Positions 5,548-24,131 of a DNA stretch of 64,000 bases are shown here, in pieces. This DNA comes from Candidatus Nanoarchaeia archaeon (GTDB lineage Archaea > Nanobdellota > Nanobdellia > SCGC-AAA011-G17 > GW2011-AR18). Location: assembly GCA_035289605.1 (NCBI GenBank), contig DATDWR010000020.1:10921-74920 (forward strand). Reading direction: 5' to 3'. A model generated the notes under the pieces. That model saw nothing but the letters and a program-made list of their open reading frames with translations, had not been told where the DNA came from and did no database searches. Both the position numbers and the translations under genes were made by a program. Positions within the stretch are counted from its first letter, which is position 1, and every line of letters begins with the position of its first letter.

Positions 5548-5787
5548 GCGGGGATGCCGGAGAACTCACAGAGGTTCGTGCTCCTACAAACTTCGTGTGT
5601 ACGGAGTGGCCAAACGGGCTAGAAGTAAAATTTACTGGCTTAGCTTAGGTTATTTCATAGGTGTTCTGAGCTTAACAGCTATGATATAAAAGACACCTAG
5701 TGGCTTAGTGCCTACGCAGGTTCGAAAGGAATCCTTTTAAAAAAAGCATTCATGGAAAAAGGATTAACGAAAGTCCTGTTCCCCGCA
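5548..5787 (+). tRNA. tRNA gene interrupted by multiple insertions (240 nt; isotype unresolved)
   Basis: The 5' GCGGGGA pairs perfectly with TCCCCGC at 5780-5786, followed by A73. The D-arm pieces GCCGGAG...TGGCCAAACGG are split by ~43 nt. The T arm GCAGG-TTCGAA / T-CCTGT is split by a ~47-nt hairpin-forming insert. Further extra sequence lies in the anticodon/variable region. Confidence 0.7.
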
Positions 5788-5790
5788 TTA
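5777..5790 (+). repeat. candidate attL core TGTTCCCCGCATTA (overlaps tRNA 3' end)
   Basis: Exact 14-mer, also present at 24118-24131 in the same orientation. Confidence 0.6.
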
Positions 5791-9199: not shown

Positions 9200-9201
9200 G
9201 T

Positions 9202-9216: not shown

Positions 9217-9323
9217 GCAAATATTTAAATATTTCGCTTTAATCTAAATTTTAGGGTGATTAACATATTGAAAGAATACCATATCAGCAAGCGACGGATG
9301 AAAGAGTCAATTATTGGACTGCC

Positions 9324-10675: not shown

Positions 10676-10731
10676 TATCTCACTAAGGGGGAGAATACAT
10701 ATATAATACTTTCGATTGTCATTTAACAGTT

Positions 10732-12073: not shown

Positions 12074-12086
12074 AGCTATAAATAAG

Positions 12087-12110
12087 AAACACGGAAAGAT
12101 CTCCATGTTT
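12087..12110. terminator. imperfect hairpin between convergent genes (AAACACGGA-AAGATC-TCCATGTTT)
   Basis: 8 of 9 bp stem read by eye, followed by a T-run. It sits between the ThyA-like (+) and VirB4-like (-) stops. Confidence 0.2.
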
Positions 12111-12183
12111 TAGCTTTTTAAGGCTTATAAGTTGAAAGGGACACGGAAAAACCAGCCCTAAATATATCTATATTTTTGTCCGC

Positions 12184-15100
12184 TTACCCGAAGATTTTAT
12201 TGATATATTCTATTATTTGTTCCCTGCCTATTATCTGAATTCCAAATTTTTTGTATAGTTTAGATTTTTTAATTTCAGTAAGAACAATCACACAATTATT
12301 TCCATACTCATTCTTTACTGATGTAAACTTGTCTTTTATTCTGTCTTTATGCTTTTTATATCCTTCTCCTGTTTCAATTTCAATAGCGTATCTCTTTCCT
12401 TTATTGTCTGTAAATATTATGTCTGGTTTTACTGTTAGGTGTCTTTCAACGTTCTTAGTTTTAGTCAAGATATATTGGTAAATAATAGAGGTTACGAATG
12501 AGTGCATGATGCTTTCTGGCAGTTCTTCTTTTACTAAATATTCGTTAGGATTTCCTTTAGTTGTGAACTTATGGAATTTTCCAGGCTTATATCCACGATC
12601 TGTTAAGTATTGTGCTTGTTCTATTGTTATCTTGTTTCTTTCATAATAAGGAATAGCTGTATCTAGTTTTGCATCTATTTTTTTCTTGTCTAAAGGTTTT
12701 CTTTCTTTTCTTCTTTCACTTTCTAGTATTTCATCAGGATTAGTAGTAATTAGTTTATGTTCTTCTTCACTTGCTTTAATCTCTAGTTCCTGATGTTCAT
12801 TATCTAAAATTAATAATCCTGATCCTATGCTGCAAGTTAAAAGAATGTTTTTTTCTGAAGGACTAAGATTGAATACTCTTGCAATACTGTCAATAACAGC
12901 TGGTTTTTGTCTTAACAAAAAAGTATAAGATGAGTTTGCTAGTGCTGCGTGTCCGGCTTTACTATTAACCAAATCAGCAACATCCTGAGTAATCATTAAC
13001 AAACCTAAATTAAATTTTCTGCAAGTTTTTACAATTTCAAAAATGTATCCTTCTTCTTCGCTCCTAGCTAGTAAACTCCATGCTTCATCAAGAACTAAAA
13101 GTTTTCTTGTCAAATCTTTTTTCATTCTAGTATAGATATAATCAAGAACAAGGAACATTATTATTGGCTTTACCTGCTTTGGCATGAAACCTATATTAAA
13201 GCACACAAAATCATTACTGAAATCAATATTAGTCTGCTTGTCTAAGAATCCAAAAACTCCATCTTTAGTATAAATGTATAATCTGTTTATCAAAGCAGTA
13301 TATGTTGACTTTTCAGTATTGTCTGCTTTACTCATCATATCAATTAAGGTGTTGTATAAACTGCTTATTGTTGGTGTTTGTATTCCGTCATAGTTTCCTT
13401 TCTTTCTTATACCGTCTCCATTATATGTTTCATCTACAGCCTTGTCTAAAACTCCTCTTTGAACTTCTGAAAGCTCTCCAAGCATTATCTTGAATAAATC
13501 TATTAACTGTAATCTTTTTTCTTCATAAGAATGCCCCATTAAGTCTAAAGGATTGATTATTGTTGTAGAATCTTTAGAAATTGTTATTATTTGTCCTTTG
13601 CATTCTTTAGTTATTGCTGCATACTCTCCCTGTGGGTCAATAATTAGTATTTTAGTTCCCTGCATGAACAATCTTGTAAGTAATAATTTAGTAAAATAAG
13701 ACTTTCCACCCCCACTAGTAGCTAAAATTAACCCATTAGCATTAGTCAACTTGTAAAGGTCTTTAATGAAAGGTATCTTATTTTTATTTAAACCAAGCAT
13801 TATTCCTTCAGGCTCACAACTCAAAAAAGGGCTAGTAAAAGGAAAGAAAGCACTAAGAGCTTCAGTTGTAATATTTCTTTTTAATTTAAGATAGTCTTCT
13901 CCAACTGGAATTATGCTCTTGTAAGCATCACTTTGCCTGAATATCGGAACTTTAGGCTGAATCATCAAAGAATTTAGTTCACTGGAAACTTTTTGTGATA
14001 ATAAATCCAAATCTTCATATGGCTTAATTTTTTCTTTATACTCTAATAACTTATTTATTCTTTTATTATACTTTTCAGGTTTTTCTTTTTCTCCCTGAGG
14101 ATTTACTTCTTTAATTTTATTAATGTCTTGTTGTGTCAGCTTGTAGTTTTCTGTCTTCTTAGTCTTACAATTAATATAAAGTGAAACGTTGAAAAGTTTT
14201 TGTTTTCCTTTCTGCAACTCTTCCAGAACTTTTCTGGTTCCTGAATACTTTATTTCTAAAGATGGATTTATTATTCCTTTAAGGCTTTCAGAAAACATGT
14301 CAGCTCTCTGCTTTTTTAGTTCATTATTTAATTGTATAAGCATGAATTCTATAGGAAAAGGCTCTAAGTGAATACTAATATCAAAATTATCATTACTACT
14401 AATAATCTTATCCAAGAAACCTTTCTCTACACTATTAGGATAGCCTACAGCTGCAACAACCCTGTTCAAGCAATTATTAACTTCAAGATGATTCTTATTA
14501 TTAATTATAAGTTTAGGACTAACTATACAACCATTCTTTATTTCTCCCTCTTTATTATTTAATGGCTTGAAGTCTTTATACTGGTTAAAATAATTATATA
14601 ACTTGTTTAGCAAAACTTTATTCTTTTCTGTGCTTTCTACCTTGCTTACTTTTAAACCTATACTTCTTAACTTGCTTTCTACTATGTTTACTTCAATATC
14701 TAAGCTATTCTTTTCTTTTACTACAATGTAGAACTTCCTGTTCTTAATTTCATTAACACTAATACTATTATTAATAAAATTCTTATAATCATTAAATAAC
14801 TTGTTAAAATCATTCCTTAACTTATTCTTTAATACATTAAAATGGTCTTCTAAGCTAATATTTTCAGAAGCTATTAATATCTGTACTGGAAAGTCTATAC
14901 TGTTCAAGAATTTCTGGAAACTTTGAATAATAACCTCTTTTTCTTCATCACTCTTAATATTAAAATTGATAGGCTGAACTTCTAATAAAACTATTCTTTG
15001 ATTCTTATTATTAATAATATAACTGTCTGTAACTTCATTAATTCCTATAAAGCTCTTCATTGAACTAGAAAAGTCATCTGTCCTTCTAAACTTGAAAAAA

Positions 15101-15324
15101 TGAATAAAATTCTTAATCCAGACTTTAGCACTAAAAAACATAAATAATATTGCTATAATAGTTATGAAAATAATTAAAGTAAACTTTAGATTATTATTAC
15201 TTATTAACTTGAAAATTATTGTACTAAAACCTAAAGAAACACCTGAATAAATCAACTGTTCGAAAGTCAAACTAAATATGATCTTCTCTTTATGCTGCAA
15301 AGGCGGTGGAATTTCGTAAGACAT
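12184..15324 (-). CDS. VirB4/TrbE/CedB-type conjugation ATPase with N-terminal membrane hairpin and C-terminal PD-(D/E)XK-like domain
   Basis: Walker A ATSGGGKSYF, Walker B LLVLDEAWSLL and MITQDVADL are present. The N-terminus has two TM helices (VirB3-like). The C-terminal ~190 aa contain ESIMHS...VKPDIIFTDNKGKRYAIEIETG. Confidence 0.8.
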   Translation of the reverse strand: MSYEIPPPLQHKEKIIFSLTFEQLIYSGVSLGFSTIIFKLISNNNLKFTLIIFITIIAILFMFFSAKVWIKNFIHFFKFRRTDDFSSSMKSFIGINEVTDSYIINNKNQRIVLLEVQPINFNIKSDEEKEVIIQSFQKFLNSIDFPVQILIASENISLEDHFNVLKNKLRNDFNKLFNDYKNFINNSISVNEIKNRKFYIVVKEKNSLDIEVNIVESKLRSIGLKVSKVESTEKNKVLLNKLYNYFNQYKDFKPLNNKEGEIKNGCIVSPKLIINNKNHLEVNNCLNRVVAAVGYPNSVEKGFLDKIISSNDNFDISIHLEPFPIEFMLIQLNNELKKQRADMFSESLKGIINPSLEIKYSGTRKVLEELQKGKQKLFNVSLYINCKTKKTENYKLTQQDINKIKEVNPQGEKEKPEKYNKRINKLLEYKEKIKPYEDLDLLSQKVSSELNSLMIQPKVPIFRQSDAYKSIIPVGEDYLKLKRNITTEALSAFFPFTSPFLSCEPEGIMLGLNKNKIPFIKDLYKLTNANGLILATSGGGKSYFTKLLLTRLFMQGTKILIIDPQGEYAAITKECKGQIITISKDSTTIINPLDLMGHSYEEKRLQLIDLFKIMLGELSEVQRGVLDKAVDETYNGDGIRKKGNYDGIQTPTISSLYNTLIDMMSKADNTEKSTYTALINRLYIYTKDGVFGFLDKQTNIDFSNDFVCFNIGFMPKQVKPIIMFLVLDYIYTRMKKDLTRKLLVLDEAWSLLARSEEEGYIFEIVKTCRKFNLGLLMITQDVADLVNSKAGHAALANSSYTFLLRQKPAVIDSIARVFNLSPSEKNILLTCSIGSGLLILDNEHQELEIKASEEEHKLITTNPDEILESERRKERKPLDKKKIDAKLDTAIPYYERNKITIEQAQYLTDRGYKPGKFHKFTTKGNPNEYLVKEELPESIMHSFVTSIIYQYILTKTKNVERHLTVKPDIIFTDNKGKRYAIEIETGEGYKKHKDRIKDKFTSVKNEYGNNCVIVLTEIKKSKLYKKFGIQIIGREQIIEYINKIFG

Positions 15325-15338
15325 TAGAAATCAATAAA

Positions 15339-16037
15339 TCAATATTTTTTAGCTACTAAATAAGAAACATCACAATTTTTTATGTAATTCTTCCAGAATT
15401 CTTTTCCATATAATTTAATTCCTTCTGAAGACACTATTGGCTTAAACCATTTGATTGAGTTAAACCCCGCTTCTTTTAGAAGTTTTTCTATATTTTCTTT
15501 TGTATGAAAAAAAGAACTTAAAGTCATTAAATATTTTTTATTGTATAAATGTATTAATATTACGGCTCCTTCTTTTAATTTTGGTGTAACTTCTTTTATT
15601 GAACCATATTCTCTTGAATCTTGATAAGTAGAATTAGGCATATCAAAAATACAGACTATTTTTCCAGATTGGTTTAATGAATTATAAAATTTTTTGAATA
15701 ATCTACTTAAACCATTATACTTTTCATAATTTAATACAAAAGGAGCAACAATAATATCAGATTTAGGATAATCAAAATTATTCATATTAGCAATTATGTA
15801 ATTTGTGTTTGGTAAAGAATTTCTCTTAGCGCTTTCTATAGCTTCTTTTGCTATATCTATACCATAAATTTTCTTAGAATCTCTTGCTAGATTTTTAGTG
15901 AAAAATCCATCACCACAACCAATATCAATTAAAGTTTTATTCTTGATACTGCCACATAGTTTTATGACTGTAGGAAGCATACTATATTTCTTATCTGGCT
16001 TATCGTGAGTCCTATAATATTTATTGAATTTTTGCAC
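15339..16037 (-). CDS. class I SAM-dependent methyltransferase
   Basis: Motif I LIDIGCGDGFF. It overlaps the upstream transporter gene by 17 nt. Confidence 0.75.
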   Translation of the reverse strand: MQKFNKYYRTHDKPDKKYSMLPTVIKLCGSIKNKTLIDIGCGDGFFTKNLARDSKKIYGIDIAKEAIESAKRNSLPNTNYIIANMNNFDYPKSDIIVAPFVLNYEKYNGLSRLFKKFYNSLNQSGKIVCIFDMPNSTYQDSREYGSIKEVTPKLKEGAVILIHLYNKKYLMTLSSFFHTKENIEKLLKEAGFNSIKWFKPIVSSEGIKLYGKEFWKNYIKNCDVSYLVAKKY

Positions 16038-16719
16038 TTTTCCCGTACATTATTATTCTATTTATATACATGAAAGGAATATCTATAACTGCAACAACCC
16101 ATTTGATTACGATTGTCCCTATAATTATCGGAAGTAAGGGTTGAACACCATAGAATGCTATTGAAGCAAAGATTACGCTATCTAACGCCATTGAAGGGAT
16201 AGAACTTAAAGCATTCCTTGCCCATAAATGTTTTCCATTTGTCAGTTTTTTAAATAATGCAAAAATGTAAGCATCAGCATTTTCACTAATTAAGAAAGCG
16301 CACCAACTTGCCAAGATAATTCTTGGAACAAAACCAAAGATTTTCTGAAATATTTCTTGATTATTCCAAAAAGGAGCTGGAGGCAGACTTATAGCAATCC
16401 AAATAAAGAAGGTTACAGCTATTTGTGTTATAAAAGCTATAAAAATCATCTTCTGAGTTTCTTTTCTTCCAAACCTCTCATTTACTATATCTGTTAACAA
16501 AAATGTAAGAGAAAAAACTATGACTGGAGAACCTGTATAAAACGTGACAAATCCAAAATCAAACGCTGCAATCTTAAAAGCAATAATATTACTGATTAAA
16601 ACAAAAGACACATACAAACCAATCAATGCATCAGGAGTGTTATATTTTTTAACATACCAAGAGCCAAAGAATGTAAAAGCACTTACAACCAAAATCCATA
16701 AAATTATAATTAATAACAT
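16021..16719 (-). CDS. YhhQ/VUT-family (queuosine-precursor type) transporter
   Basis: ~6 TM, 232 aa, with LLTDIVNERFGRKETQKMIF and ENADAYIF / ALDSVIF patterns as I recall for the DUF165/YhhQ family. Confidence 0.55.
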   Translation of the reverse strand: MLLIIILWILVVSAFTFFGSWYVKKYNTPDALIGLYVSFVLISNIIAFKIAAFDFGFVTFYTGSPVIVFSLTFLLTDIVNERFGRKETQKMIFIAFITQIAVTFFIWIAISLPPAPFWNNQEIFQKIFGFVPRIILASWCAFLISENADAYIFALFKKLTNGKHLWARNALSSIPSMALDSVIFASIAFYGVQPLLPIIIGTIVIKWVVAVIDIPFMYINRIIMYGKSAKIQ

Positions 16720-16788
16720 TAGTTTTTTAACACTCCAATCTAAAGATTAATACAAAATATTTAAATAATAGTTCTCCCACTTAGGAGT

Positions 16789-17526
16789 ATGGCAATAGAA
16801 GATTTAAAGTTCTTAGACTTGACAGATAATGAAATAAGGGTATATTTAGCCATTCTAAAAAATGGGAAACTTACTGGCACTAAGATAAAACAAATAACCA
16901 GTATAGCCAACTCAAGAGTTTATTCAGCAATAGATTCACTAATATCAAAAGGAATAATTATTTATGAAAAACACCAAAAAGGAAGATTATACGCAGCTAT
17001 TAATCCTGAAATATTAAAAGAATTAATGAAAGAAAGAATGGAAAAAATAGAAAAAACCATACCAATACTAAAAGAATTACAGAGTAATGAAAAAACTGAA
17101 ACAGAAAGTGCAGTATTTGAAGGACTACAAGGATTTAGAACAGCATTAATAAAGTTGGCAAACGAGTGTCCAATAGGAGAAACAATACATATCATAGGAT
17201 TTTCAAATCAAAACTACAAAAATGAAAAACTGGCAGCAATATTAAACACTGTAAACAAAATATCAATGAAAAGAAAACACAAATTCAAAATGATACTGGA
17301 TGACGAAGAAAATAAATTCTTCGAAAAAAGAAAAAAGGAAGGATTATCAGAAATAAGATTCATGGGAAACAACTTCAAAAGTCCAGCAGCAATAGACATA
17401 TTCCAAGACTATGTATACATATTACTATGGGATGAAAACCCCTATGCATTTATAATAAAAAACAAAAACATAGCAGAAGGATTCAAAATATACTTCAACT
17501 TCCTATGGAACATGGCAAAAAAGTAA
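16789..17526 (+). CDS. TrmB-family transcriptional regulator (paralog 3)
   Basis: LDLTDNEIRVYLAILKNGKLTGTKIKQITSIANSRVYSAIDSLISKGIIIY wHTH. It is divergent from the transporter-methyltransferase pair. Confidence 0.8.
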   Translation: MAIEDLKFLDLTDNEIRVYLAILKNGKLTGTKIKQITSIANSRVYSAIDSLISKGIIIYEKHQKGRLYAAINPEILKELMKERMEKIEKTIPILKELQSNEKTETESAVFEGLQGFRTALIKLANECPIGETIHIIGFSNQNYKNEKLAAILNTVNKISMKRKHKFKMILDDEENKFFEKRKKEGLSEIRFMGNNFKSPAAIDIFQDYVYILLWDENPYAFIIKNKNIAEGFKIYFNFLWNMAKK

Positions 17527-18435
17527 TTAAACTCCTCCAGCAGCCATCATAATTCCTGTTTTTATTTCAGAATAGACTTCTCCCATTCCTGATTTGTTAA
17601 TTATGAACTTAATCAGTAATAAGAATACTAAGTCTACAAGCAAAAAACTAACAATGTAAAATATTATTGTAAAGTGTTCTACTATTGGAGCAGTAACAAG
17701 CAAACTACAACCTAAAATTATTATAGAACAAATAAAAGGAATAAAAATAAGCATAACAATCAAGTTAATTATAAGCTTGCCATAACTTCTAAGGAAATGA
17801 ACAAAATAAAGAAATATTCCTATAGGAAAGAATATCACTCCAAGACTAACAAAAACCCATCTGGCTAATAAAAAAATACAAGTAATAATCAAGACTAACA
17901 CATAAGGAATAATCATCAAAATCTGCAATAAAGCATTACCAAAACTATCACTAGTAACAGTAAAAAAAGAAGGACTAACATTACTAAAAACATAACCAGT
18001 CAAGCTAGAATTTAATTCAATTAGTAAATTGTATAAATAAAAACTAGAACTAACCAAAACCAAAGCAATAATCATGTTCTTTATTGATTCTTTAGCATGA
18101 TGTCTTTTAACTATATCTTCACTGTTCAAAATAAAAACACTACCTGAATACAAAAGAAAGAAGATATAGAATACACTAATAATCCCAATAATAGTAAACC
18201 AGGCACTCTCAAAAACACCAGTATTGGGAATAGTAGTCATCAAGTCAACAACCCAACTAATAAAAGGCTGAGCAGCTAATCCTGTAGTATGAGAAACTAT
18301 TCTTGCTACATCACCAAGACAACTCAAAAGAGAGAAAAAAGAACAACCAGAATCATTACTATCTGAAGAATCAGCTAAAGACATAGGCAAGACTAAAAGA
18401 AGAACTACAAATAAAGTTAGAAGTTTAGATTTCAT
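17527..18435 (-). CDS. polytopic membrane protein with signal peptide (VirB6/TrbL/CedA-like candidate)
   Basis: Signal peptide, a short Ser/Asp/Cys-rich ectodomain, then ~6-7 TM helices. The assignment rests on topology and context only. Confidence 0.4.
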   Translation of the reverse strand: MKSKLLTLFVVLLLVLPMSLADSSDSNDSGCSFFSLLSCLGDVARIVSHTTGLAAQPFISWVVDLMTTIPNTGVFESAWFTIIGIISVFYIFFLLYSGSVFILNSEDIVKRHHAKESIKNMIIALVLVSSSFYLYNLLIELNSSLTGYVFSNVSPSFFTVTSDSFGNALLQILMIIPYVLVLIITCIFLLARWVFVSLGVIFFPIGIFLYFVHFLRSYGKLIINLIVMLIFIPFICSIIILGCSLLVTAPIVEHFTIIFYIVSFLLVDLVFLLLIKFIINKSGMGEVYSEIKTGIMMAAGGV

Positions 18436-18575
18436 TTTTAGAAAGAAAATTTATTTTATAATAATCATTAGAATTTTCAGGCACAAACCAAATGGTTTTT
18501 GCATTTTCCTAATACTTTGATCTAGATTAAAGTTATAGTTAATTATTTAAACTAGAATAAACCTAAAATCTTGAT

Positions 18576-18779
18576 ATGAAAAATAAAGTCATCATTTTTG
18601 TTATTTTGTTGATAATATTGAGTTTGTTTTTGTTCGGTTGTAATGATAAATTTGAAAATCCTGAATGTCAAAATGATCTAGATTGTAAAGATATGGGTGC
18701 TCTAGGTGGTCAATGTATAAATAATCATTGTCAACTAAACCCTGAACCTACATCACCACCAGCCTTACCGGAGGAATAA
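18576..18779 (+). CDS. small secreted Cys-rich protein (lipobox-like LFGC)
   Basis: Signal peptide ending LFLFGC, then 6 Cys in 40 aa and a Pro-rich tail. Confidence 0.5.
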   Translation: MKNKVIIFVILLIILSLFLFGCNDKFENPECQNDLDCKDMGALGGQCINNHCQLNPEPTSPPALPEE

Positions 18780-18782
18780 AAT

Positions 18783-19481
18783 ATGAAAAAAATAATCGCT
18801 CTAATTTTAGTATTAATAATTTCTAGTTTGTCAGTTTTAGCAATAATTAATGGAATGACTCCTGGAGATAGGCTAGGAGATAAAACAAAGTATGAGATAG
18901 GTGTAAAAGTTGAGAAAGGTTGGAACTTATTAGTCGCAGCAACTCCAGACTTAATATCACAAGACAGGATTTATGGCGGAGGAGACATAAAAAAGGAGAA
19001 TATAAAGATGATTTATGTATTTAATCCGTTTATTCAGCAGTATGCAAGAGTATTCCCAAATCCAGAACAGGAAAAAATTCATAAATTAGTGGAATCGTTT
19101 CCTCAAGACTCTGACTTATTAGCTAATTCTGCATGGGTTTACAGCGACAAAGCAGGATATTTAAGATTTAGACCTGATGAATACTTACTGGATTTAGAAG
19201 ATAGAAAATTAGTTCTTGGGTGGAATTTTGTGGGAATTACTCCAGAATTTACAGGTAAAAAATTCAAAGAAATGACAGGAAACTGCATTATAGAAAAGGC
19301 TTACGTATATGTCTACCAGGATGGGACAAACCCTCACTGGGAAAAGATAGTGCAAGAAAAAGATTCTTTAATACCCAAAGAATTCGAAGGAATGGGAATG
19401 GTTGTAAAAGTAAAGGGCGAACCATGTAGTATGGGTGGAATGAAAACTGCAGAAAATACAGTGCCATCATTACCTGCTTAA
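18783..19481 (+). CDS. hypothetical secreted protein
   Basis: Signal peptide MKKIIALILVLIISSLSVLA; 232 aa. Confidence 0.5.
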   Translation: MKKIIALILVLIISSLSVLAIINGMTPGDRLGDKTKYEIGVKVEKGWNLLVAATPDLISQDRIYGGGDIKKENIKMIYVFNPFIQQYARVFPNPEQEKIHKLVESFPQDSDLLANSAWVYSDKAGYLRFRPDEYLLDLEDRKLVLGWNFVGITPEFTGKKFKEMTGNCIIEKAYVYVYQDGTNPHWEKIVQEKDSLIPKEFEGMGMVVKVKGEPCSMGGMKTAENTVPSLPA

Positions 19482-19486
19482 AAATT

Positions 19487-19999
19487 ATGAAAACTAAAAC
19501 CCTAATAATAACTGTAGTTGTAATAATTTTTATTTTAATTGCAGTTCTTGCTACAGCCTATCTAAAACCCTATTATGATTACAATCAGGATAAGAAAAAA
19601 GCATACGATAAAACAAAAACCTATCCCTCAGTTTTAGACTTTAAAGAAATTACAATAAGTGAAATTAATAATAAAAATTTAACTGGAAATTTTAATGTTG
19701 AAGCCTTTGTAATACAAAAATTTGTTTGTGCACCATGTTCACCTTATATGTTCTGTAAAATATGTAAACCTGATGGAATATTAATTTCAGAAAATTTAAT
19801 TCAAAAAGGAGACTATATTCAATTAAATAAAGAAAGAATAAAACTATTAGATTTAGAAACAACAAACCCCAACCAATTTGAAATCGGGCAAAAGTATAAA
19901 TTCTCAATAGAAATAATTGAAAAAGAAAAAGTCTATAGTGATAAAGAAAGAATAGTATTAAAATTAATAAGATTATTAGGATATGAAAAATTAATTTAA
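19487..19999 (+). CDS. hypothetical N-terminally anchored protein
   Basis: Single N-terminal TM; contains a CxxC...CxxC cluster (CAPCSPYMFCKIC). Confidence 0.5.
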   Translation: MKTKTLIITVVVIIFILIAVLATAYLKPYYDYNQDKKKAYDKTKTYPSVLDFKEITISEINNKNLTGNFNVEAFVIQKFVCAPCSPYMFCKICKPDGILISENLIQKGDYIQLNKERIKLLDLETTNPNQFEIGQKYKFSIEIIEKEKVYSDKERIVLKLIRLLGYEKLI

Positions 20000-21181
20000 A
20001 CTTCTCACAACAAAATGCTTAATTATTCTATAAACCAAATACAAGATAAATAATAGCGCAATTAGTTTTAGTATCCATGTTAAGTCATAATTGAATTCTC
20101 TTACTTGATAATTGCTTACAGTGTTATTCTCTAAATTAATGTTTAAGTTACAATCATGATTAAGATTATAAAAATGATTAAACAATATTAGTTTACAGTT
20201 ATTAATATTTTTAACATATAAACTGTTGTCTGTTCCTGCAATTAAGTTATCAGTTTTCTTAATGTTTACTTTGTCAGCTTTCAAAACTGCAATATAAAAT
20301 GGTTTTTTAGTAAATTCTACTGAGTATATATATTTTTGTTCTTTATAGTAAGAATTGTCAAACTTTATTATCAAACTTGAATAGTCTTTTGCTTCATAGT
20401 TTAACTTTATTGTATTAAAATTGTTTTCTACTGCTTTAATGCTAGCGCTTGGTTTATTATCATAATACTTTACATTAATACTGTCATTTAATTCTATATT
20501 ATCTTTAAGATATTCTTTATTCTTGTACTCACACTTGTAATTGTAACTCGTGCACTGCCCTCTTCTGTTCCTATTAGTGCAATACTTATTCCATACACTA
20601 TTATCTTTCTTAATATTAACACTAACTTCTAATTTAGTGGTTATTAATGAATCCTGATTTACACTTATAGCTTGTACTTTATTACTTCCTTGCACCTGAT
20701 TATTAACTAAAATGCTTAATTTAGAATTGTTTTCTATTAACTCATAAGTTATCTTACAATAACCATTACTGTTTTCTTGATAATTATTGGCTTGATAATC
20801 TTGTGGGACTATAACTTTATAATAATAATCACTTAACACTAAAGAATTACTAGTGACGTATAAATTATTATTTTCTAAAACACTAGGACTTATAGCATTC
20901 AAAGAAACCCAAGCAGACTTAATATAAATAGAGTCTACTACTAATAAATTTTCCAGACTAGAATTAACTTTAATATTAGAGTTATAATTTAGAATGAAAT
21001 CATGATTAGGGAAACTAGAATAATTATAAAACAAACCTGAAAGTAAGAAATATTTTTGGGATTCATTCATTGAAGAACTTAATATATTATTGCACTGTTG
21101 CAAGTTAGAAGCTAAAGAACAATCAAAAGAAGCAGAAGCTAAAGGAAGAATTACTAAGAAAATTAAGAGAAAATATTTCAT
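19991..21181 (-). CDS. Asn/Ser-rich secreted protein with C-terminal TM anchor
   Basis: Signal peptide and a C-terminal helix (WILKLIALLFILYLVYRII) followed by basic residues; 396 aa. Confidence 0.55.
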   Translation of the reverse strand: MKYFLLIFLVILPLASASFDCSLASNLQQCNNILSSSMNESQKYFLLSGLFYNYSSFPNHDFILNYNSNIKVNSSLENLLVVDSIYIKSAWVSLNAISPSVLENNNLYVTSNSLVLSDYYYKVIVPQDYQANNYQENSNGYCKITYELIENNSKLSILVNNQVQGSNKVQAISVNQDSLITTKLEVSVNIKKDNSVWNKYCTNRNRRGQCTSYNYKCEYKNKEYLKDNIELNDSINVKYYDNKPSASIKAVENNFNTIKLNYEAKDYSSLIIKFDNSYYKEQKYIYSVEFTKKPFYIAVLKADKVNIKKTDNLIAGTDNSLYVKNINNCKLILFNHFYNLNHDCNLNINLENNTVSNYQVREFNYDLTWILKLIALLFILYLVYRIIKHFVVRSLN

Positions 21182-21203
21182 TAGAAGAAGATTTCTGGTG
21201 ATT

Positions 21204-21932
21204 TTACTTTTGCTTTAGAAATTCGCTTACTTCTCTTGCTTTTCTCATTAAATTATCTAAATCCATAGAGTTTAATGTTTGCCAATACATTGGATGGTGA
21301 TTTATATAAAAAATTTCTCTATTTTCACATGTTGCTACCATAAGTCTGATTGGAACTATTCCAGGCGGAGAATTACAATGATATTCATTATACGGGCTAA
21401 CTATTTCTCCTAAGTGATGTCTTAAACTCGCAAATTCATTTGGTCTTCCTTTTGATTTGTTCACATCTACTACCATAGCAATCATAGGAGACCTTATCGC
21501 ATAAGACCTACTTCCATCTCCATTTAAATAGGCATATCCTTGTGAACCATATATAACAATTCTTCCTAAATCTTTGTTTATTTCAGAAAGTGGATGATAT
21601 CTCAATCCAGTAAGCTCAATTAATCCATCAATACCTTCAGATTCTCCTACTTTTAGGCTTTCTTTAATGCTTTTTCTTATGAACTTTTCTGATAATTCAT
21701 CTGAATCCATTGCATCTTGGCGTTCTTCTTCAAAGGTTGGTTGTCCTCTCCTCATTGCTACGCTTAATCCTTCTGGTGAAGAAAAGAAAACCCCTGTATG
21801 TTGAAGAGTAGTTTGCATACTTAAGATACCCCTAACATCTTTATGACCTTTAAGATAGCGAACAATCTGGATATAAGATTCTGTATGCTCCCTGTTATAA
21901 GCTTCCTTTTTGTCAGTTTTTCTTATTAGCAT
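21204..21932 (-). CDS. hypothetical protein (compositionally atypical)
   Basis: 242-aa ORF, richer in G/R/H/P than its neighbours, with no motif recognised. Confidence 0.5.
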   Translation of the reverse strand: MLIRKTDKKEAYNREHTESYIQIVRYLKGHKDVRGILSMQTTLQHTGVFFSSPEGLSVAMRRGQPTFEEERQDAMDSDELSEKFIRKSIKESLKVGESEGIDGLIELTGLRYHPLSEINKDLGRIVIYGSQGYAYLNGDGSRSYAIRSPMIAMVVDVNKSKGRPNEFASLRHHLGEIVSPYNEYHCNSPPGIVPIRLMVATCENREIFYINHHPMYWQTLNSMDLDNLMRKAREVSEFLKQK

Positions 21933-22018
21933 TAAATGCTTAAATTTATATTATTAATAAATATTATTATATAATTATACACAAAAACGATAAATATATA
22001 AATATTAATATATTTTAT

Positions 22019-23005
22019 GTGTATATGAAGGAATTAGACCTTAAAGACTATAAAATTTTGTATGAACTAGATGTTAATGCCAGACAAAATGATTCTGAAA
22101 TAGCCAAAAAAGTAGGCTTAACAAGAGACTCAACCAGATACAGAATAAACAAATTAGTCGAAGAAGGTTATATCTATTATTTTATGACACTAATTAATTC
22201 AATGAAATTAGGTTACAATTGGTATAGGACATTTTTCAAATTTCAAAACTTAACAATTGAGAAAGAAAAAGAAATTATTGATTATCTAAAAGAAAAAACA
22301 AGCTGGATTTCCAAAGTAGAAGGATTTTGGGATCTAAACACAGGAATTTTTCTCGAAAACGTTTATGAGTACCGTGATTTTATTAATGAATTTTTATTGA
22401 AATATAGTTTATTCATCGAAAGATACAATGTTTCTATTGTTACAAGAGAATGGATTTACTGCCATGATTATCTTCTTAATAAAAAACAAAAGACCAACAA
22501 ACCAATTTTAATGGGATTTAATAATAAAAGTGAATATAAAGCAGAGAATATAGATAAAATGGATTATAAAATTCTCAAAACAATACTGAAAAATGCCAGA
22601 ATGAAAAGTATCGATATAGCAAGAGAAATAGGAACAACAGAAATAGTTATTAGATATCGTATCAAAAAGTTAATACAAAAAGGAATAATAATAGGATTCA
22701 AGCCATTTCTTAATATCAATAAACTTGGTTATACCTATTTTAAGCTTCATATAACATTACAAAATTTAACTAAAGAAAAAAAGAACTCTATTATAAATAA
22801 TATTCACCAACATCCCAACACAATCCACATGACAGAACTAGTGGGTGGTGCTGATATAGAATGCGAGTTTCAAGTAAAGACTAACGAAGAATTTTATCAA
22901 CATATACAAGAATTAAGAACAAAATTCAGTGATATTATAAGAGATTACAAATTTATGCAGTATACTAAAGAGTACAAATTTACTTATCTTCCTGAAATTT
23001 TTTAA
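22019..23005 (+). CDS. tandem double Lrp/AsnC-type HTH regulator
   Basis: Two repeats of the pattern D.KIL..L..NAR....IA...G.....YRI.KL...G.I (aa ~6-55 and ~180-230). The likely ATG is at 22025. Confidence 0.65.
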   Translation: MYMKELDLKDYKILYELDVNARQNDSEIAKKVGLTRDSTRYRINKLVEEGYIYYFMTLINSMKLGYNWYRTFFKFQNLTIEKEKEIIDYLKEKTSWISKVEGFWDLNTGIFLENVYEYRDFINEFLLKYSLFIERYNVSIVTREWIYCHDYLLNKKQKTNKPILMGFNNKSEYKAENIDKMDYKILKTILKNARMKSIDIAREIGTTEIVIRYRIKKLIQKGIIIGFKPFLNINKLGYTYFKLHITLQNLTKEKKNSIINNIHQHPNTIHMTELVGGADIECEFQVKTNEEFYQHIQELRTKFSDIIRDYKFMQYTKEYKFTYLPEIF

Positions 23006-23132
23006 AAAAATTATTCCTTTCTAGTCACTATACCTTCGCTATATTTGTGAAGAGAACAGTTATAGTTCCTTCTAGCTCAAGCGGTACAGTCACACACGTT
23101 ATAAAAAAGTCCAAAGAATAAACAAGGGACTT

Positions 23133-23468
23133 TTATGTTGTCAAATAATTGACTATTATTGGTGCTACCCAGATTAATCCTAGACCTATTACTATGTACA
23201 TTACTTTTGTTTTAGCTTGTTCTTTTTCTGAAGGATTATTGTTCATGAACATCTGAACAGCTGCAAATACTATAAACAGTAAAGCTAAGACACTAGCAGC
23301 ATACTTTACAAAATTATAGACTTTCATTACAGGTGCTAATATCTGGTTGAATGTGTTAACATCTGTTGAGCTTGGCCCTGTTATTGTTACAGCATGAACA
23401 CTATAGGCTAAAGGCAATACCATTAGTATTAGTGCTATTGTGCAGTTAAGCAGGTTGTTTTTCTTCAT
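23133..23468 (-). CDS. VirB2/TrbC/CedA1-like pilin candidate
   Basis: 111 aa with a signal peptide ending VHA. Two hydrophobic helices (AASVLALLFIVFAAVQMF and VMYIVIGLGLIWVAPIIV) are separated by a short charged loop. This is the conjugative-pilin topology. Confidence 0.5.
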   Translation of the reverse strand: MKKNNLLNCTIALILMVLPLAYSVHAVTITGPSSTDVNTFNQILAPVMKVYNFVKYAASVLALLFIVFAAVQMFMNNNPSEKEQAKTKVMYIVIGLGLIWVAPIIVNYLTT

Positions 23469-23757
23469 TATTATTCACCTCCACGAACATTTTTCTAAAG
23501 CCTTCAAACTCGTCTTTAGGCATTAGAGTTTCACTACTGCCAGCATTCTCAACTTTAGGAGTGATTTTACCATGAACTTTTTTCTTAACAAGCAAGAACT
23601 TAACTGTCAAGAACACCAGCAGTAAAAGTGCTCCAATACCCAAAAATATGAAAAAAGTCTCTAAATCCAACTTGAACAGTAAACTAACAGTTATGCTTAA
23701 CGGAAGATACAATATCCAAAACATGAAATAATAAGCTATTAGTTTGCTAGTTTTCAT
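23446..23757 (-). CDS. small 2-3 TM membrane protein
   Basis: The likely start MKTSKLIAYYF at 23757 overlaps the stop of the upstream Zn-ribbon ORF. The ORF track extends it to 23787. Confidence 0.4.
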   Translation of the reverse strand: MKTSKLIAYYFMFWILYLPLSITVSLLFKLDLETFFIFLGIGALLLLVFLTVKFLLVKKKVHGKITPKVENAGSSETLMPKDEFEGFRKMFVEVNNNEEKQPA

Positions 23758-23923
23758 ATTTGCCTCCTTTCTTGTAAGCTTTGACAATTCTAGCTACTTT
23801 TTTCACGCTTCCATACTTTGATAATAAAAAATCAAAACAAGTCTTGCACAAAGTAAACCTGTCAAGTATAATGCTAAAATTTCCTGACTCTCTTTTGCAT
23901 AATTTGCACATTTTTGTTTTCAT
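23747..23923 (-). CDS. 58-aa zinc-ribbon protein
   Basis: Own translation: MKTKMCKLCKRESGNFSIILDRFTLCKTCFDFLLSKYGSVKKVARIVKAYKKGGKYEN (CxxC...CxxC). It is below the ORF-track cut-off. Confidence 0.35.
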   Translation of the reverse strand: MKTKMCKLCKRESGNFSIILDRFTLCKTCFDFLLSKYGSVKKVARIVKAYKKGGKYEN

Positions 23924-24117
23924 AAAAGTAAATTGGCATAGAGAAATATAAATGTCCTTAACAATTTTGGAGCAAAAATGGAGTCAACAGCGTTGCAACT
24001 AGAATGTAGCAAGACACTTTAGAAAGATATTTAAAGAAAATTCAACCTATAATTATATTAAAAAATTAGACGATTTACTTTTCAGGCGATAACGCTATAC
24101 ACCGGCGGGCTTTTGCA

Positions 24118-24131
24118 TGTTCCCCGCATTA
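24118..24131 (+). repeat. candidate attR core TGTTCCCCGCATTA
   Basis: Exact copy of 5777-5790. Its last 3 nt are the stop codon (complement) of the 248-aa membrane-protein gene. Confidence 0.6.

What the first reader, a model, noticed from the sequence alone, without database searches (positions are those of the whole stretch)
12184..23923. Conjugation / Ced-like DNA-transfer gene set in a DPANN-like archaeon, with no relaxase or coupling protein
The element carries several parts of such a system. There is a 1046-aa VirB4/TrbE-type ATPase (GGGKS, DEAW, ITQD motifs). There is a 302-aa signal-peptide polytopic membrane protein with VirB6/TrbL/CedA-like topology. There is a 111-aa protein with the exact conjugative-pilin layout: signal peptide, then two hydrophobic helices joined by a short charged loop, as in VirB2/TrbC/CedA1. 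Another small 2-3 TM protein, a 58-aa Zn ribbon and four secreted or anchored proteins (18576-21181) are also present. I see no HUH/MOB relaxase, no VirD4/TraG coupling ATPase and no VirB11. That minimal composition resembles the crenarchaeal Ced/Ted DNA-import systems more than a bacterial T4SS. Here, however, it rides on an integrative element in what looks like an episymbiont-type genome. It could mediate DNA exchange with a host cell.
Basis: partly seen in the sequence, partly recalled or inferred. Interest (0 to 1): 0.85.

Follow-up and report, generated by a model that had tools for sequence, protein, structure and literature searches.

The report
Pilus-type DNA-transfer element in nanoarchaeon
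An ~18-kb island beside a tRNA-like gene in a tiny DPANN archaeon carries a stripped-down conjugation-type machine (pilin, channel protein, motor ATPase) whose motor is fused to a predicted DNA-cutting domain; the design recurs in hundreds of related genomes and may explain DNA transfer without a relaxase.

Summary
The 1046-aa protein is a VirB4 ATPase of the Gram-positive (MPF-FATA, CD1110-like) type. The 111-aa protein scores above Pfam thresholds for T4SS_pilin and TrbC/VirB2. The 302-aa protein is VirB6-like on weak evidence. I found no relaxase, coupling protein or VirB11.

New findings:
- The VirB4 has an N-terminal membrane anchor (weakly VirB3/PrgI-like) and a conserved C-terminal domain of about 185 aa. 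This domain is predicted to have a PD-(D/E)xK nuclease fold, and its putative catalytic residues are kept in 73-75 of 76 homologues.
- The core is a conserved co-directional operon: Zn-ribbon, pilin, 396-aa surface protein, VirB6-like, VirB4. It occurs in Woese-/Pacearchaeota genomes (430 hits in GTDB species representatives). The 396-aa and VirB6-like proteins are one fused protein in about 19-25 loci.
- The module usually travels with a tyrosine integrase that sits next to a tRNA gene. In this window a multi-intron tRNA-like gene precedes the integrase, and 14-bp direct repeats (5777 and 24118) bound a low-GC island of about 18.3 kb holding the whole set.

Verdict: an integrated, probably self-transmissible element with a minimal pilus-forming T4SS. 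By sequence it is closer to bacterial and Patescibacteria-type systems than to Ced/Ted. It is a new variant of a known kind.

The parts
5548..5787 (+). tRNA-like gene with several introns; probable integration target (attL side)
   Evidence: A 7-bp acceptor stem (GCGGGGA/UCCCCGC) with discriminator A. A T-arm (GCAGG-UUCGAAA...CCUGU) interrupted by a 47-nt hairpin. The minimum-energy fold pairs the two ends, z = -2.4. ARAGORN and Rfam do not call it. In 7 related loci a canonical tRNA ends 70-160 bp before the integrase on the same strand, and two more have a tRNA beside an integrase in another arrangement.
5777..5790 (+). attL candidate: 14-bp direct repeat TGTTCCCCGCATTA overlapping the 3' end of the tRNA-like gene
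   Evidence: Exact second copy at 24118-24131. With up to 1 mismatch, 0.02 matches are expected per shuffled window.
5861..7204 (+). Tyrosine integrase (447 aa)
   Evidence: Pfam Phage_integrase, 1.2e-10. Integrase homologues lie within 10 kb of VirB4 in 24 of 50 well-flanked related loci, and in 20 of them upstream on the same strand.
12187..12744 (-). C-terminal domain of VirB4 (residues 861-1046): small N-terminal subdomain plus predicted PD-(D/E)xK nuclease fold
   Evidence: AF2 model with pLDDT 89.5. Foldseek against PDB: NucS/EndoMS at E 3e-4 and probability 0.99, then YaeQ, Card1/Can2 nuclease, Hjc and Mus81. Foldseek against the viral library: restriction endonuclease, endonuclease I, VRR-NUC, ERCC4. 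E937, H941, D968, E982, E984 and K999 are conserved in 73-75 of 76 homologues. No Pfam family covers it.
12745..15114 (-). VirB4 N-terminal (TraC-like) domain and P-loop ATPase domain
   Evidence: Walker A SGGGKS and Walker B DE are invariant in 76 of 76 homologues. Closest plasmid homologues are CD1110-family VirB4s of Firmicutes and Actinobacteria, at about 30% identity.
15115..15324 (-). N-terminal membrane anchor of VirB4, VirB3/PrgI-like
   Evidence: Pfam PrgI at E 6e-4, residues 9-70, below the cutoff. Hydrophobic helix at 48-66. The N-terminal motif is conserved in homologues. Some homologues carry a precomputed PF12666 hit.
17527..18435 (-). VirB6/TrbL-like polytopic membrane protein (302 aa)
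   Evidence: Precomputed Pfam TrbL_3, weak. AF2 model with pLDDT 80. Its top three PDB matches are TrwI/VirB6 of R388, but at E 0.17-0.26 and TM 0.31-0.38. Directly upstream of VirB4 in 47 of 50 loci. TM1-2 hits T4SS_pilin in 16 of 25 family members.
19991..21181 (-). Surface protein 'S' (396 aa; signal peptide, Cys-rich ectodomain, C-terminal TM anchor); the detached ectodomain of an extended VirB6
   Evidence: Aligns to residues 61-355 of a 693-aa fused protein (33%, 1e-49). The 302-aa protein aligns to residues 419-690 of the same protein (40%, 1e-63). S or the S-VirB6 fusion is present in 39 of 50 loci. No Pfam hit here. A homologue carries DUF8186.
22019..23005 (+). Double winged-helix Lrp/AsnC-type regulator (328 aa); recurrent accessory gene
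   Evidence: Pfam HTH_24 and HTH_AsnC, twice. Its family (cluster c18) occurs in 9 loci including this window, and an HMM built from the non-window members hits this ORF at 2.4e-45.
23133..23468 (-). VirB2-type pilin (111 aa)
   Evidence: PF18895 at 7.2e-15 and PF04956 at 1.5e-7, both above cutoff. More than 1000 homologues, named 'pilin' or 'VirB2 component' by NCBI and JGI in Woese-/Pace-/Nanoarchaeia.
23446..23757 (-). Small 2-TM protein (103 aa from the ATG); optional component
   Evidence: Homologues lie between the Zn-ribbon and pilin genes in 15 loci. No family match.
23747..23923 (-). Zn-ribbon protein (58 aa); first gene of the operon
   Evidence: CxxC...CxxC motif. A homologue immediately precedes the pilin in 35 of 50 loci.
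24118..24131 (+). attR candidate: second copy of TGTTCCCCGCATTA
   Evidence: It lies 195 bp beyond the Zn-ribbon gene. GC is 0.293 inside 5777-24131, against 0.337 to the left and 0.359 to the right.

Best explanation
The region is the transfer module of an integrated mobile element of about 18.3 kb (5777-24131). The element sits at the 3' end of a tRNA-like gene and belongs to a family that is widespread in Nanoarchaeota (Woese-/Pacearchaeales).

The module is a minimal, monoderm-type T4SS:
- a Sec-exported VirB2-type pilin;
- an 'extended VirB6', here split into a 396-aa anchored ectodomain and a 302-aa polytopic platform;
- a single membrane-anchored VirB4 motor.

Inferred mechanism:
1. The VirB4 hexamer, tethered by its own VirB3-like N-terminus, extracts pilin from the membrane and polymerises it on the VirB6 platform. 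This builds a conjugative-type pilus that contacts another cell.
2. The PD-(D/E)xK domain fused to the cytoplasmic end of VirB4 nicks or cuts the excised element at the channel entrance.
3. The same ATPase then feeds the DNA into the channel.

One protein would thereby replace both the relaxase and the coupling protein. The integrase handles excision and integration at the tRNA.

Shown: the gene identities, the conserved operon, the fusion architecture, the integrase/tRNA linkage and the candidate att repeats. Inferred: pilus formation, nuclease activity, the substrate and the direction of transfer.
For: Component identity.

Conserved operon Zn-ribbon, pilin, S, VirB6, VirB4:
- Pilin and VirB6-like are present in 47 of 50 well-flanked loci.
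- There are 430 hits among GTDB species genomes, the best 80 nearly all labelled Woese-/Pace-/Nanoarchaeota.
- S and VirB6 are fused in 19 of the 50 well-flanked loci, about 25 over all loci (alignment).

Nuclease domain: confident model, PD-(D/E)xK matches in two structure libraries, and near-invariant acidic/Lys residues.

Mobile-element context:
- Integrase near 24 of 50 loci.
- A canonical tRNA immediately upstream of that integrase in 7 loci, and beside an integrase in two more.
- The recurrent compact layout is tRNA, INT, DNA methyltransferase, NikA-like RHH protein, operon, then type I R-M.
- Single MAGs, and even one contig, hold 2-3 copies that are only 45-76% identical, as divergent as copies from different genomes.

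In this window: tRNA-like gene, integrase, 14-bp flanking repeats and a GC dip.

No second VirB4/VirD4-like ATPase occurs within 10 kb in 83 loci.

Literature: archaeal conjugative plasmids also lack recognisable relaxases (PMC9905601, PMC12857230).
Against: - No transfer, excision or pilus has been observed.
- A junction pattern for the empty site, and then the tRNA 3'-end/attL sequence alone, found nothing in the metagenome collection. No related contig is circular.
- The att repeat is only 14 bp (BLAST E 0.03 for the 161-nt query), and the tRNA-like gene is not recognised by ARAGORN or Rfam.
- attR repeats were not found in related loci.
- In this window the module is inverted relative to the integrase and is interrupted by regulators, methyltransferases and a transporter. 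This copy may be rearranged or domesticated.
- The canonical Lys of the (D/E)xK motif is a Glu (E982-x-E984). Activity is unproven, and Foldseek TM-scores are low (0.3-0.46).
- The VirB6 assignment is weak.
- A T4CP or relaxase could be encoded elsewhere in the genome.
Confidence: 0.5

Rival explanations
1. Host-interaction or scavenging T4SS, the DPANN counterpart of the Patescibacteria system. The pilus connects the episymbiont to its host cell and imports macromolecules. The nuclease fused to VirB4 degrades incoming host DNA or RNA at the channel exit to supply nucleotides. The integrase linkage would reflect how the system spreads, not what it does.
For: - It has the same unusual combination as in Patescibacteria: an MPF-FATA-like VirB4 plus PF18895 pilins, with no relaxase (PMC12102498).
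- That bacterial system is essential for epibiotic growth (PMC12857230). T4SS-like tubes and host RNA feeding are reported for a Patescibacteria parasite (bioRxiv 10.64898/2026.06.21.733656).
- The module is very widespread in a reduced-genome lineage.
- A cytoplasmic nuclease at the motor fits degradation of imported nucleic acid.
- Large secreted Cys-rich proteins lie next to the island.
Against: - The module is accessory, not universal. It is multi-copy with divergent paralogues and linked to tRNA-integrase junctions, DNA methyltransferases and R-M systems, which is typical of self-transmissible islands.
- The neighbouring giant proteins are not conserved next to VirB4.
- No host-contact data exist.
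Confidence: 0.25
2. Ced/Ted-like DNA import between cells of the same species, for recombination or repair. The pilus imports DNA, and VirB4 acts as the import motor.
For: It has the same minimal parts list as Ced/Ted: a VirB2-like pilin, a VirB6-like protein and a VirB4-like ATPase, with no relaxase (PMC9905601).
Against: - By sequence it groups with bacterial MPF-FATA and T4SS_pilin families.
- The pilin profile finds no solved pilin at E<=10.
- Linkage to integrase, tRNA and methyltransferase, and divergent multi-copies, are unlike the chromosomal Ced/Ted loci described in PMC9905601.
- A nuclease at the cytoplasmic exit would damage imported DNA meant for recombination.
Confidence: 0.12
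3. This particular copy is a decaying or domesticated remnant. The element integrated and was then rearranged and invaded by unrelated genes, and it no longer transfers.
For: - The module is inverted relative to the integrase, unlike the canonical layout.
- About 11.7 kb of the region carries interspersed TrmB and Lrp regulators, SAM methyltransferases, a Vut_1 transporter and non-conserved secreted proteins.
- The NikA-like RHH protein, the N6/N4 DNA methyltransferase and the c7 family found in compact relatives are absent. The only TFB homologue (2330-3274) lies outside the proposed island.
Against: - All five core ORFs are full length compared with homologues: 1046 vs 1036, 302 vs 298, 396 vs 400, 111 vs 111 and 58 vs 56 aa.
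- ATPase and nuclease motifs are intact.
- An identical VirB4 is seen on 14 contigs from several samples.
Confidence: 0.1
4. It is not a transfer system but a membrane-associated defence system built on a HerA/VirB4-like ATPase with a nuclease effector.
For: - PADLOC models mad8 (8.6e-13) and HerA (5.9e-8) hit the P-loop region.
- ATPase-nuclease fusions are common in defence systems.
- R-M systems, DUF2779 and reverse transcriptases are frequent neighbours.
Against: - VirB4 family scores are far higher: about 290 bits against 46.
- The obligatory partnership with a VirB2-type pilin and a VirB6-like protein in 47 of 50 loci is the signature of a T4SS.
- No PADLOC hit for the partner proteins.
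Confidence: 0.03

Closest known systems
Patescibacteria (CPR) T4SS (Quinonero-Coronel et al. 2025, PMC12102498; Wang et al. 2023, PMC10633639)
   Same: - A monoderm MPF-FATA-like VirB4 combined with VirB2-like pilins of Pfam PF18895/PF04956.
- A VirB6-like protein is present.
- No relaxase.
- The host is an ultrasmall, reduced-genome organism presumed to be an episymbiont.
   Different: - The host here is archaeal.
- VirB3 is fused to VirB4; that study found no such fusions in 2,474 proteins.
- VirB4 carries a C-terminal nuclease-like domain.
- There is one pilin gene, not a multi-pilin cluster.
- VirB6 carries or partners a large ectodomain.
- No TrsD, VirB1 or VirB8 homologues were seen.
- The module is linked to a tRNA and an integrase rather than to the origin region.
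- Whether the VirB4s are sister clades was not tested.
Ced (Sulfolobales) and Ted (Thermoproteales) DNA-import systems (PMC9905601)
   Same: An archaeal, minimal set of a VirB2-like pilin, a VirB6-like membrane protein and a VirB4-like ATPase. No relaxase and no VirB11.
   Different: - The pilin profile gave no sequence-level match to any solved pilin.
- The ATPase is best matched by bacterial CD1110 and Mbov_0397 families.
- It is carried on an integrase-bearing island, not a fixed chromosomal locus.
- The nuclease is fused to the ATPase, whereas a separate HerA-NurA is proposed for Ced/Ted.
- Direction of transport is unknown here.
MPF-FATA conjugation modules of Firmicutes/Actinobacteria ICEs and plasmids (CD1110-family VirB4; structure 4AG5)
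   Same: - The best-scoring VirB4 families: 4.9e-86 for conju_CD1110 and about 30% identity over the ATPase domain.
- Monoderm architecture.
- ICE-like integration next to a tRNA.
   Different: - Those systems have a relaxase, a T4CP, VirB8-like and cell-wall hydrolase components, and no VirB2 pilin.
- Their family models and the solved VirB4 domain end about where the nuclease-like extension begins.
Archaeal conjugative plasmids (pNOB8/pING family; pT33-3 of Thermococcus) as reviewed in PMC12857230
   Same: Archaeal, VirB4-dependent DNA transfer with no recognisable relaxase.
   Different: - Those plasmids encode a VirD4-like T4CP. No recognisable pilin homologue has been found on archaeal conjugative plasmids (PMC9905601).
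- This element has a pilin and no T4CP, and it is integrated.
Nanohaloarchaeal giant 'SPEARE' proteins with an adjacent VirB4 (PMC10266531)
   Same: DPANN archaea with VirB4/TraG-like ATPases, interpreted as part of a T4SS used on the host.
   Different: - There the ATPase domain is embedded in a giant surface protein rich in Ig-like domains.
- No pilin/VirB6 operon or nuclease domain is described.
- The lineage and architecture are different.
NucS/EndoMS, Hjc and other PD-(D/E)xK nucleases (structural neighbours of the C-terminal domain)
   Same: The predicted core fold, and the placement of conserved acidic residues on the first helix and on strands beta2 and beta3.
   Different: - No detectable sequence similarity.
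- The motif is D...ExE with a downstream Lys rather than (D/E)xK.
- The domain is fused to a secretion ATPase, or elsewhere to a TM plus coiled-coil anchor.

Membership tests
Type IV secretion / conjugative mating-pair-formation system (monoderm MPF-FATA class) | VirB4-family ATPase with Walker A/B motifs | tested here: met
   NCBIfam VirB4_plasma 4.7e-87 and conju_CD1110 4.9e-86; PF19044 at 4.9e-28; PDB 4AG5 at 5e-32. Motifs are invariant in 76 of 76 homologues.
Type IV secretion / conjugative mating-pair-formation system (monoderm MPF-FATA class) | VirB6/TrbL-like polytopic membrane protein | tested here: inconclusive
   Precomputed TrbL_3 hit is only 'weak' and was not reproduced by my own Pfam scan. 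The top three Foldseek PDB hits are TrwI/VirB6, but at E 0.17-0.26. The position next to VirB4 in 47 of 50 loci supports the assignment.
Type IV secretion / conjugative mating-pair-formation system (monoderm MPF-FATA class) | VirB3/PrgI-like small membrane protein (separate or fused to VirB4) | tested here: inconclusive
   PrgI PF12666 at E 6e-4 and 20.7 bits against a cutoff of 27, on residues 9-70 of VirB4. A few homologues carry the hit precomputed.
Type IV secretion / conjugative mating-pair-formation system (monoderm MPF-FATA class) | Type IV coupling protein (VirD4/TcpA) | tested here: not met
   None among about 65 window ORFs scanned. No second VirB4/VirD4-like ATPase within 10 kb in 83 loci. 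The rest of the genome was not examined.
Type IV secretion / conjugative mating-pair-formation system (monoderm MPF-FATA class) | Relaxase (MOB/HUH or Rep_trans) | tested here: not met
   No relaxase family was hit in the window (same calls). None occurs among the recurrent neighbour clusters, which include only NikA-like RHH accessory proteins in relatives.
VirB2/TrbC conjugative pilins | Signal peptide plus two hydrophobic helices joined by a short charged loop, with a match to the pilin families | tested here: met
   PF18895 at 55.3 bits (cutoff 26.6) and PF04956 at 32.0 bits (cutoff 27.9). Topology.
Integrative and conjugative element (ICE) | Site-specific recombinase at the element border next to the target (often a tRNA) | tested here: met
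   Integrase at 5861-7204, 73 bp after a tRNA-like gene. The same tRNA-integrase junction occurs in 7 relatives.
Integrative and conjugative element (ICE) | Flanking direct repeats (attL/attR) | tested here: inconclusive
   A 14-bp exact repeat at 5777 and 24118, with 0.02 expected by chance and coinciding with a GC step. It is short, and it was not found in relatives.
Integrative and conjugative element (ICE) | Excision and transfer (circular form, empty sites) | tested here: inconclusive
   The scans for an empty-site junction pattern and for the tRNA 3'-end sequence found nothing, not even the occupied site, so the collection does not contain this population. No related contig has terminal overlaps.
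Ced/Ted archaeal DNA-import systems | Pilin homologous to CedA1/TedC | tested here: not met
   The pilin-family profile finds no pilin of any kind among PDB chain sequences at E<=10. I did not verify that the CedA1/TedC chains are in that copy. The fold was not compared.
Ced/Ted archaeal DNA-import systems | ATPase belonging to the CedB/TedB clades | not tested
The best family matches are bacterial VirB4 models.
Ced/Ted archaeal DNA-import systems | Import of DNA, DNA-damage induction, chromosomal (non-mobile) locus | not testable with these tools
   Direction and regulation need experiments. The locus here is linked to an integrase and tRNA, unlike the chromosomal loci described in PMC9905601.
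Patescibacteria-type T4SS | MPF-FATA-like VirB4 with PF18895/PF04956 pilins nearby and no relaxase | tested here: met
   criteria as used in PMC12102498.
Patescibacteria-type T4SS | Membership of the monophyletic Patescibacteria VirB4 clade in a bacterial host | tested here: not met
   The host is archaeal, and the top 120 homologues that carry names are nearly all archaeal. Clade placement by phylogeny was not done.
PD-(D/E)xK nuclease superfamily (C-terminal domain of VirB4) | Core alpha-beta-beta-beta-alpha-beta fold | tested here: met
   AF2 model with pLDDT 89.5. Foldseek probability 0.95-0.99 to NucS/EndoMS, plus YaeQ, Can2/Card1, Hjc, Mus81, T7 endonuclease I-like and VRR-NUC proteins. 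TM-scores are only 0.3-0.46.
PD-(D/E)xK nuclease superfamily (C-terminal domain of VirB4) | Catalytic D...(D/E)xK residues | tested here: inconclusive
   E937, D968, E982 and E984 are conserved in 73-75 of 76 homologues, and K999 in 74 of 76. The motif reads ExE rather than ExK. From my own knowledge, BamHI has such a variant. Activity is untested.

The most novel reading that the evidence does not exclude
The VirB3-VirB4-nuclease fusion is a self-sufficient DNA-processing and DNA-pumping motor. If so, this would be the first recognisable mechanism for relaxase- and coupling-protein-independent conjugation in Archaea. Alternatively, running in reverse, it would be an import-and-shred machine that lets DPANN cells feed on host nucleic acids. 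Either way it would be a DPANN-wide counterpart of the essential Patescibacteria T4SS, spread by tRNA-targeting integrative elements.
Probability: 0.35. Interest if true: 0.85.

Novelty: new variant of a known kind. Interest (0 to 1): 0.7.

Why it matters
Archaeal conjugation has no known relaxase, so how transfer starts is an open question (PMC9905601, PMC12857230). Here a nuclease-fold domain with a conserved active-site-like constellation is fused to the only ATPase of a minimal pilus-forming T4SS. The fusion is kept across hundreds of genomes. That gives a concrete, testable candidate for the missing DNA-processing step.

It also shows that DPANN archaea, like Patescibacteria, widely carry a T4SS with VirB2-type pilins. 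This is relevant to how ultrasmall episymbionts exchange DNA or exploit hosts. The papers I could search, including a December 2025 T4SS review, do not describe it. The compact five-gene operon is small enough for heterologous reconstitution.

Tried and rejected
- **Sequence search of the C-terminal domain.** PDB and Pfam, with 30 members scanned, gave nothing. The fold assignment rests on AF2 plus Foldseek only.
- **Profile of the VirB6-like family against PDB sequences.** Only noise (spidroin).
- **Own Pfam scan of the VirB6-like family.** It did not reproduce the precomputed TrbL_3 hit. It hit T4SS_pilin on TM1-2 instead.
- **Pilin profile against PDB sequences.** No pilin matched, only RNase kappa noise.
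- **Generic direct-repeat scan of the window.** The tRNAs at 35340 and 37973 were tested as att sites and rejected, because their 3' ends are not repeated.
- **att repeats in six related loci and tRNA 3'-end repeats in seven.** None was convincing. One 15-nt T-arm match in L077 lies inside the operon and remains unexplained.
- **Circular contigs among 96 loci.** None.
- **IMG/VR scan for the VirB4.** Only two short P-loop matches, so there is no evidence for a virus or plasmid-like form in that collection.
- **Metagenome scans for an empty-site junction and for the tRNA 3' end.** No match at all, so they are uninformative.
- **Genomic context of stand-alone nuclease-domain proteins.** Two contigs were too short. 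One protein lies between integrase genes with no VirB4 nearby.
- **Iterative HMM searches.** They merged the pilin, VirB6 and S families, because of the S-VirB6 fusions and the pilin-like TM1-2 of VirB6. I separated them by length and by BLAST clustering instead.
- **Defence-system reading (PADLOC).** Considered and rejected.
- **Giant secreted proteins at 24872-33992 as part of the system.** Rejected, because they lie outside the repeats and are not conserved next to VirB4.

Full report
**Observation check.** These are VirB4 at 12184-15324(-), 1046 aa, with SGGGKS, DEAW and ITQD; a 302-aa polytopic protein at 17527-18435(-); a 111-aa protein at 23133-23468(-); a 103/113-aa two-TM protein; a 58-aa four-Cys protein; and four signal-peptide or anchored proteins at 18576-21181. 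Hydropathy confirms the topologies. The window is archaeal, with TFIIB, S8e and Cdc6/Orc1 and S3Ae, SRP54, FtsY, TruD, eIF2-alpha and GINS. The identical VirB4 is deposited as 'Candidatus Nanoarchaeia archaeon'.

**Component identity.** The ATPase matches NCBIfam VirB4_plasma (4.7e-87) and conju_CD1110 (4.9e-86). It matches TraC-F and VirB4_CagE far less well, and HerA hardly at all. It also matches Pfam P-loop_TraG, DUF87 and AAA_10 and the solved VirB4 domain 4AG5 (5e-32, residues 506-860). Against PLSDB, the closest plasmid homologues are CD1110-family VirB4s of Bacillales, Clostridia and Actinobacteria, at about 30% identity. It is therefore an MPF-FATA-type VirB4, not a HerA or FtsK.

The 111-aa protein exceeds the curated cutoffs of both T4SS_pilin (55.3 bits against 26.6) and TrbC/VirB2 (32.0 against 27.9). 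More than 1000 homologues exist. NCBI and JGI already label them 'pilin' or 'VirB2 component' in Woese-, Pace- and Nanoarchaeia.

The 302-aa protein is VirB6-like on weaker grounds. It has a precomputed weak TrbL_3 hit. Its AF2 model (pLDDT 80) has TrwI/VirB6 of plasmid R388 as its three best PDB matches, but only at E 0.17-0.26. Its first two helices resemble a pilin hairpin in 16 of 25 family members.

VirB4 has two extensions. Its first ~70 residues form a membrane anchor with a sub-threshold PrgI/VirB3 match. Its last ~185 residues extend beyond the end of the bacterial VirB4 family matches. This extension is present in essentially all of the top 120 homologues, which are 914-1092 aa long with mostly 97-100% query coverage.

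An alignment-based AF2 model of this C-terminal domain is confident (pLDDT 89.5). Foldseek places it with NucS/EndoMS (E 3e-4, probability 0.99), YaeQ, the Can2/Card1 nuclease domains, Hjc and Mus81 in the PDB. In the viral library it matches restriction endonucleases, endonuclease I, VRR-NUC and ERCC4 proteins. All of these are PD-(D/E)xK folds. E937, H941, D968, E982, E984 and K999 are conserved in 73-75 of 76 homologues, nearly as strictly as the Walker motifs.

No Pfam or PDB sequence match exists for this domain. An exhaustive profile search finds 644 cluster representatives. These include VirB4 C-termini and a second architecture, a TM plus coiled-coil plus this domain.

The 396-aa secreted protein is not an accessory. 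It aligns to the N-terminal half of 660-704-aa proteins whose C-terminal half is the VirB6-like protein. Together the two are a split 'extended VirB6'.

**Comparative genomics.** A scan of one genome per GTDB species found 430 stretches encoding a relative. The best 80 are almost all labelled Woese-, Pace- or Nanoarchaeota. I called ORFs in these loci and clustered them. This revealed a co-directional operon: Zn-ribbon, an optional small TM protein, pilin, S, VirB6 (or the S-VirB6 fusion), then VirB4.

Among 50 non-redundant loci with at least 5 kb of upstream sequence:
- 47 have the pilin and 47 have the VirB6-like gene;
- 39 have the S domain;
- 35 have the Zn-ribbon;
- 24 have a tyrosine integrase within 10 kb, in 20 of them upstream on the same strand.

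The recurrent compact layout is tRNA, integrase, N6/N4 DNA methyltransferase, a small RHH protein (NikA-like, 30 bits against a cutoff of 27), the operon, and then a type I R-M system or a c7 plus TFB-paralogue pair. ARAGORN finds a canonical tRNA ending 70-160 bp before the integrase in seven loci, and beside an integrase in two more.

Several MAGs hold two or three copies, and one contig holds two. These copies are only 45-76% identical, the same range as between genomes, where the median is 50%. That pattern points to independent acquisitions. No second VirB4/VirD4-like ATPase and no recurrent P-loop family occurs in these neighbourhoods.

**The island in this window.** The 400-bp gap before the integrase (5861-7204) contains a GC-rich segment that neither ARAGORN nor Rfam recognises. 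It nonetheless has a 7-bp acceptor stem, a discriminator A and a T-arm interrupted by a hairpin. Its minimum-energy fold pairs the two ends (z = -2.4). I read it as a multi-intron tRNA gene, in the position that canonical tRNAs occupy in relatives.

Its 3' end, TGTTCCCCGCATTA, recurs exactly once, at 24118-24131. Shuffled windows give 0.02 matches, and the BLAST E-value for the 161-nt query is 0.03. The second copy lies 195 bp beyond the Zn-ribbon gene. The repeats bound 18.35 kb with GC 0.293, against 0.337 on the left and 0.359 on the right. Every gene of the finding lies inside.

Relative to the canonical layout, the T4SS module here is inverted. It is also interrupted by TrmB and Lrp-type regulators, SAM methyltransferases, a Vut_1 transporter and non-conserved secreted proteins. 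All five core ORFs are nevertheless full length.

The giant Cys-rich secreted proteins to the right (24872-33992) lie outside the repeats. They are not conserved next to VirB4.

**Interpretation.** The best-supported reading is an integrated, probably self-transmissible element. Its transfer apparatus is a minimal monoderm T4SS that makes a VirB2-type pilus. Its single motor carries its own membrane anchor and a nuclease-fold domain.

I infer that the nuclease substitutes for the relaxase, and together with the ATPase for the coupling protein, by cutting or nicking the excised element at the channel entrance. This fits the known absence of relaxases from archaeal conjugative plasmids (PMC9905601, PMC12857230). 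It is unproven. The motif is ExE rather than ExK, no excision products were found, and this copy is rearranged.

The main rival is a host-directed uptake system like the essential Patescibacteria T4SS (PMC12102498, PMC12857230, and the RNA-feeding preprint). There the nuclease would shred imported nucleic acid. The Ced/Ted-like import reading is weaker, because sequence affinities are bacterial-type and the locus is mobile. A defence reading is unlikely.

**Novelty.** Annotation pipelines already name the individual proteins. The system-level picture is absent from the literature I could search: a DPANN-wide, integrase-borne, five-gene T4SS with a VirB3-VirB4-nuclease fusion and a split or fused extended VirB6. 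That literature includes a December 2025 T4SS review and the Patescibacteria survey, which reports no VirB3-VirB4 fusions. Subscription journals are not covered. I rate it a new variant of a known kind, with an interest of about 0.7.

Noticed in passing
window 24872-33992 (-): Three consecutive secreted proteins of 480, 1884 and 676 aa have no Pfam match. The 480-aa protein and the C-terminus of the 1884-aa protein share a Cys-rich motif (C..SCQK..CITG..C.G.YCCG.G.LYCC). GC is 0.36-0.40 against about 0.29 in the adjacent island. They may be DPANN surface or adhesion proteins. They lie just outside the island's attR repeat.
   Followed up: partly
window 35340-35434 (-) and 37973-38112 (-): Rfam detects two intron-containing tRNA genes that ARAGORN missed. 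Their 3' ends are not repeated elsewhere in the window.
   Followed up: yes
window 43511-43598 and 45262-45283: The 3' end of a tRNA has an exact 22-nt copy 1.75 kb away. Between the two copies lie a LAGLIDADG-domain ORF (43589-44266) and two small ORFs. This may be a small second integrated island or a remnant of one.
   Followed up: no
window 35763-36140 (+) and 36492-36908 (+): Two PIN-domain proteins (toxin-like) lie in a low-GC stretch (0.27) between the giant-protein genes and the housekeeping genes.
   Followed up: no
window 7815-17526: There is an unusual density of paralogues inside the island: three TrmB-family regulators (8459, 9923, 16789), three SAM methyltransferases (7815, 10732, 15339), a short thymidylate-synthase-like protein (11351-12073) and a Vut_1/queuosine-precursor transporter (16021-16719).
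   Followed up: no
related loci, e.g. L089:6982-7173, L059:4460-4651, L010:5894-6067: Small RHH proteins of about 60 aa match the relaxosome accessory family NikA-like (PF21983). They recur between the integrase or methyltransferase and the pilin operon in 12 loci (cluster c13) and 10 loci (cluster c15). None is detectable in this window.
   Followed up: partly
related loci, e.g. L008:13409-14501, L010:14712-15500: A TFB (TFIIB) paralogue occurs near VirB4 in 16 loci, usually downstream and usually preceded by an ~89-aa protein of unknown function. It suggests an element-encoded transcription initiation factor. The window's TFIIB (2330-3274) lies outside the proposed island.
   Followed up: no
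L092:8001-9188 / L093:4251-5438 (protein P0148) and P0149, P0150, P0153, P0155, P0158: The VirB4 C-terminal nuclease-like domain also exists as stand-alone proteins with N-terminal TM helices and a coiled coil. One of them sits between two integrase genes next to a reverse transcriptase, with no VirB4 nearby.
   Followed up: partly
L008 and L009 (flanks of the operon): A conserved gene set travels with the T4SS operon but on opposite sides in the two genomes. It comprises a reverse transcriptase, a radical-SAM protein, a double-AAA (Cdc48-like) ATPase and three unknown proteins. It may be a defence or retroelement cassette.
   Followed up: no
L001, L003, L027, L059, L068, L075, L083, L087: DUF2779 proteins of about 480-500 aa recur near the VirB4 module in 8 loci, usually together with type I or type III R-M genes.
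   Followed up: no
L077:8675: A 15-nt exact copy of the T-arm of the tRNA-Glu that precedes the integrase lies inside the pilin-VirB6 region of the same locus. It is too GC-rich to be an obvious chance match, and it is unexplained.
   Followed up: no
L061, L062, L065, L082: In a subgroup of loci the large S ectodomain protein is replaced by a protein of about 130 aa (cluster c31; signal peptide, Cys-rich, C-terminal TM) between the pilin and VirB6.
   Followed up: no
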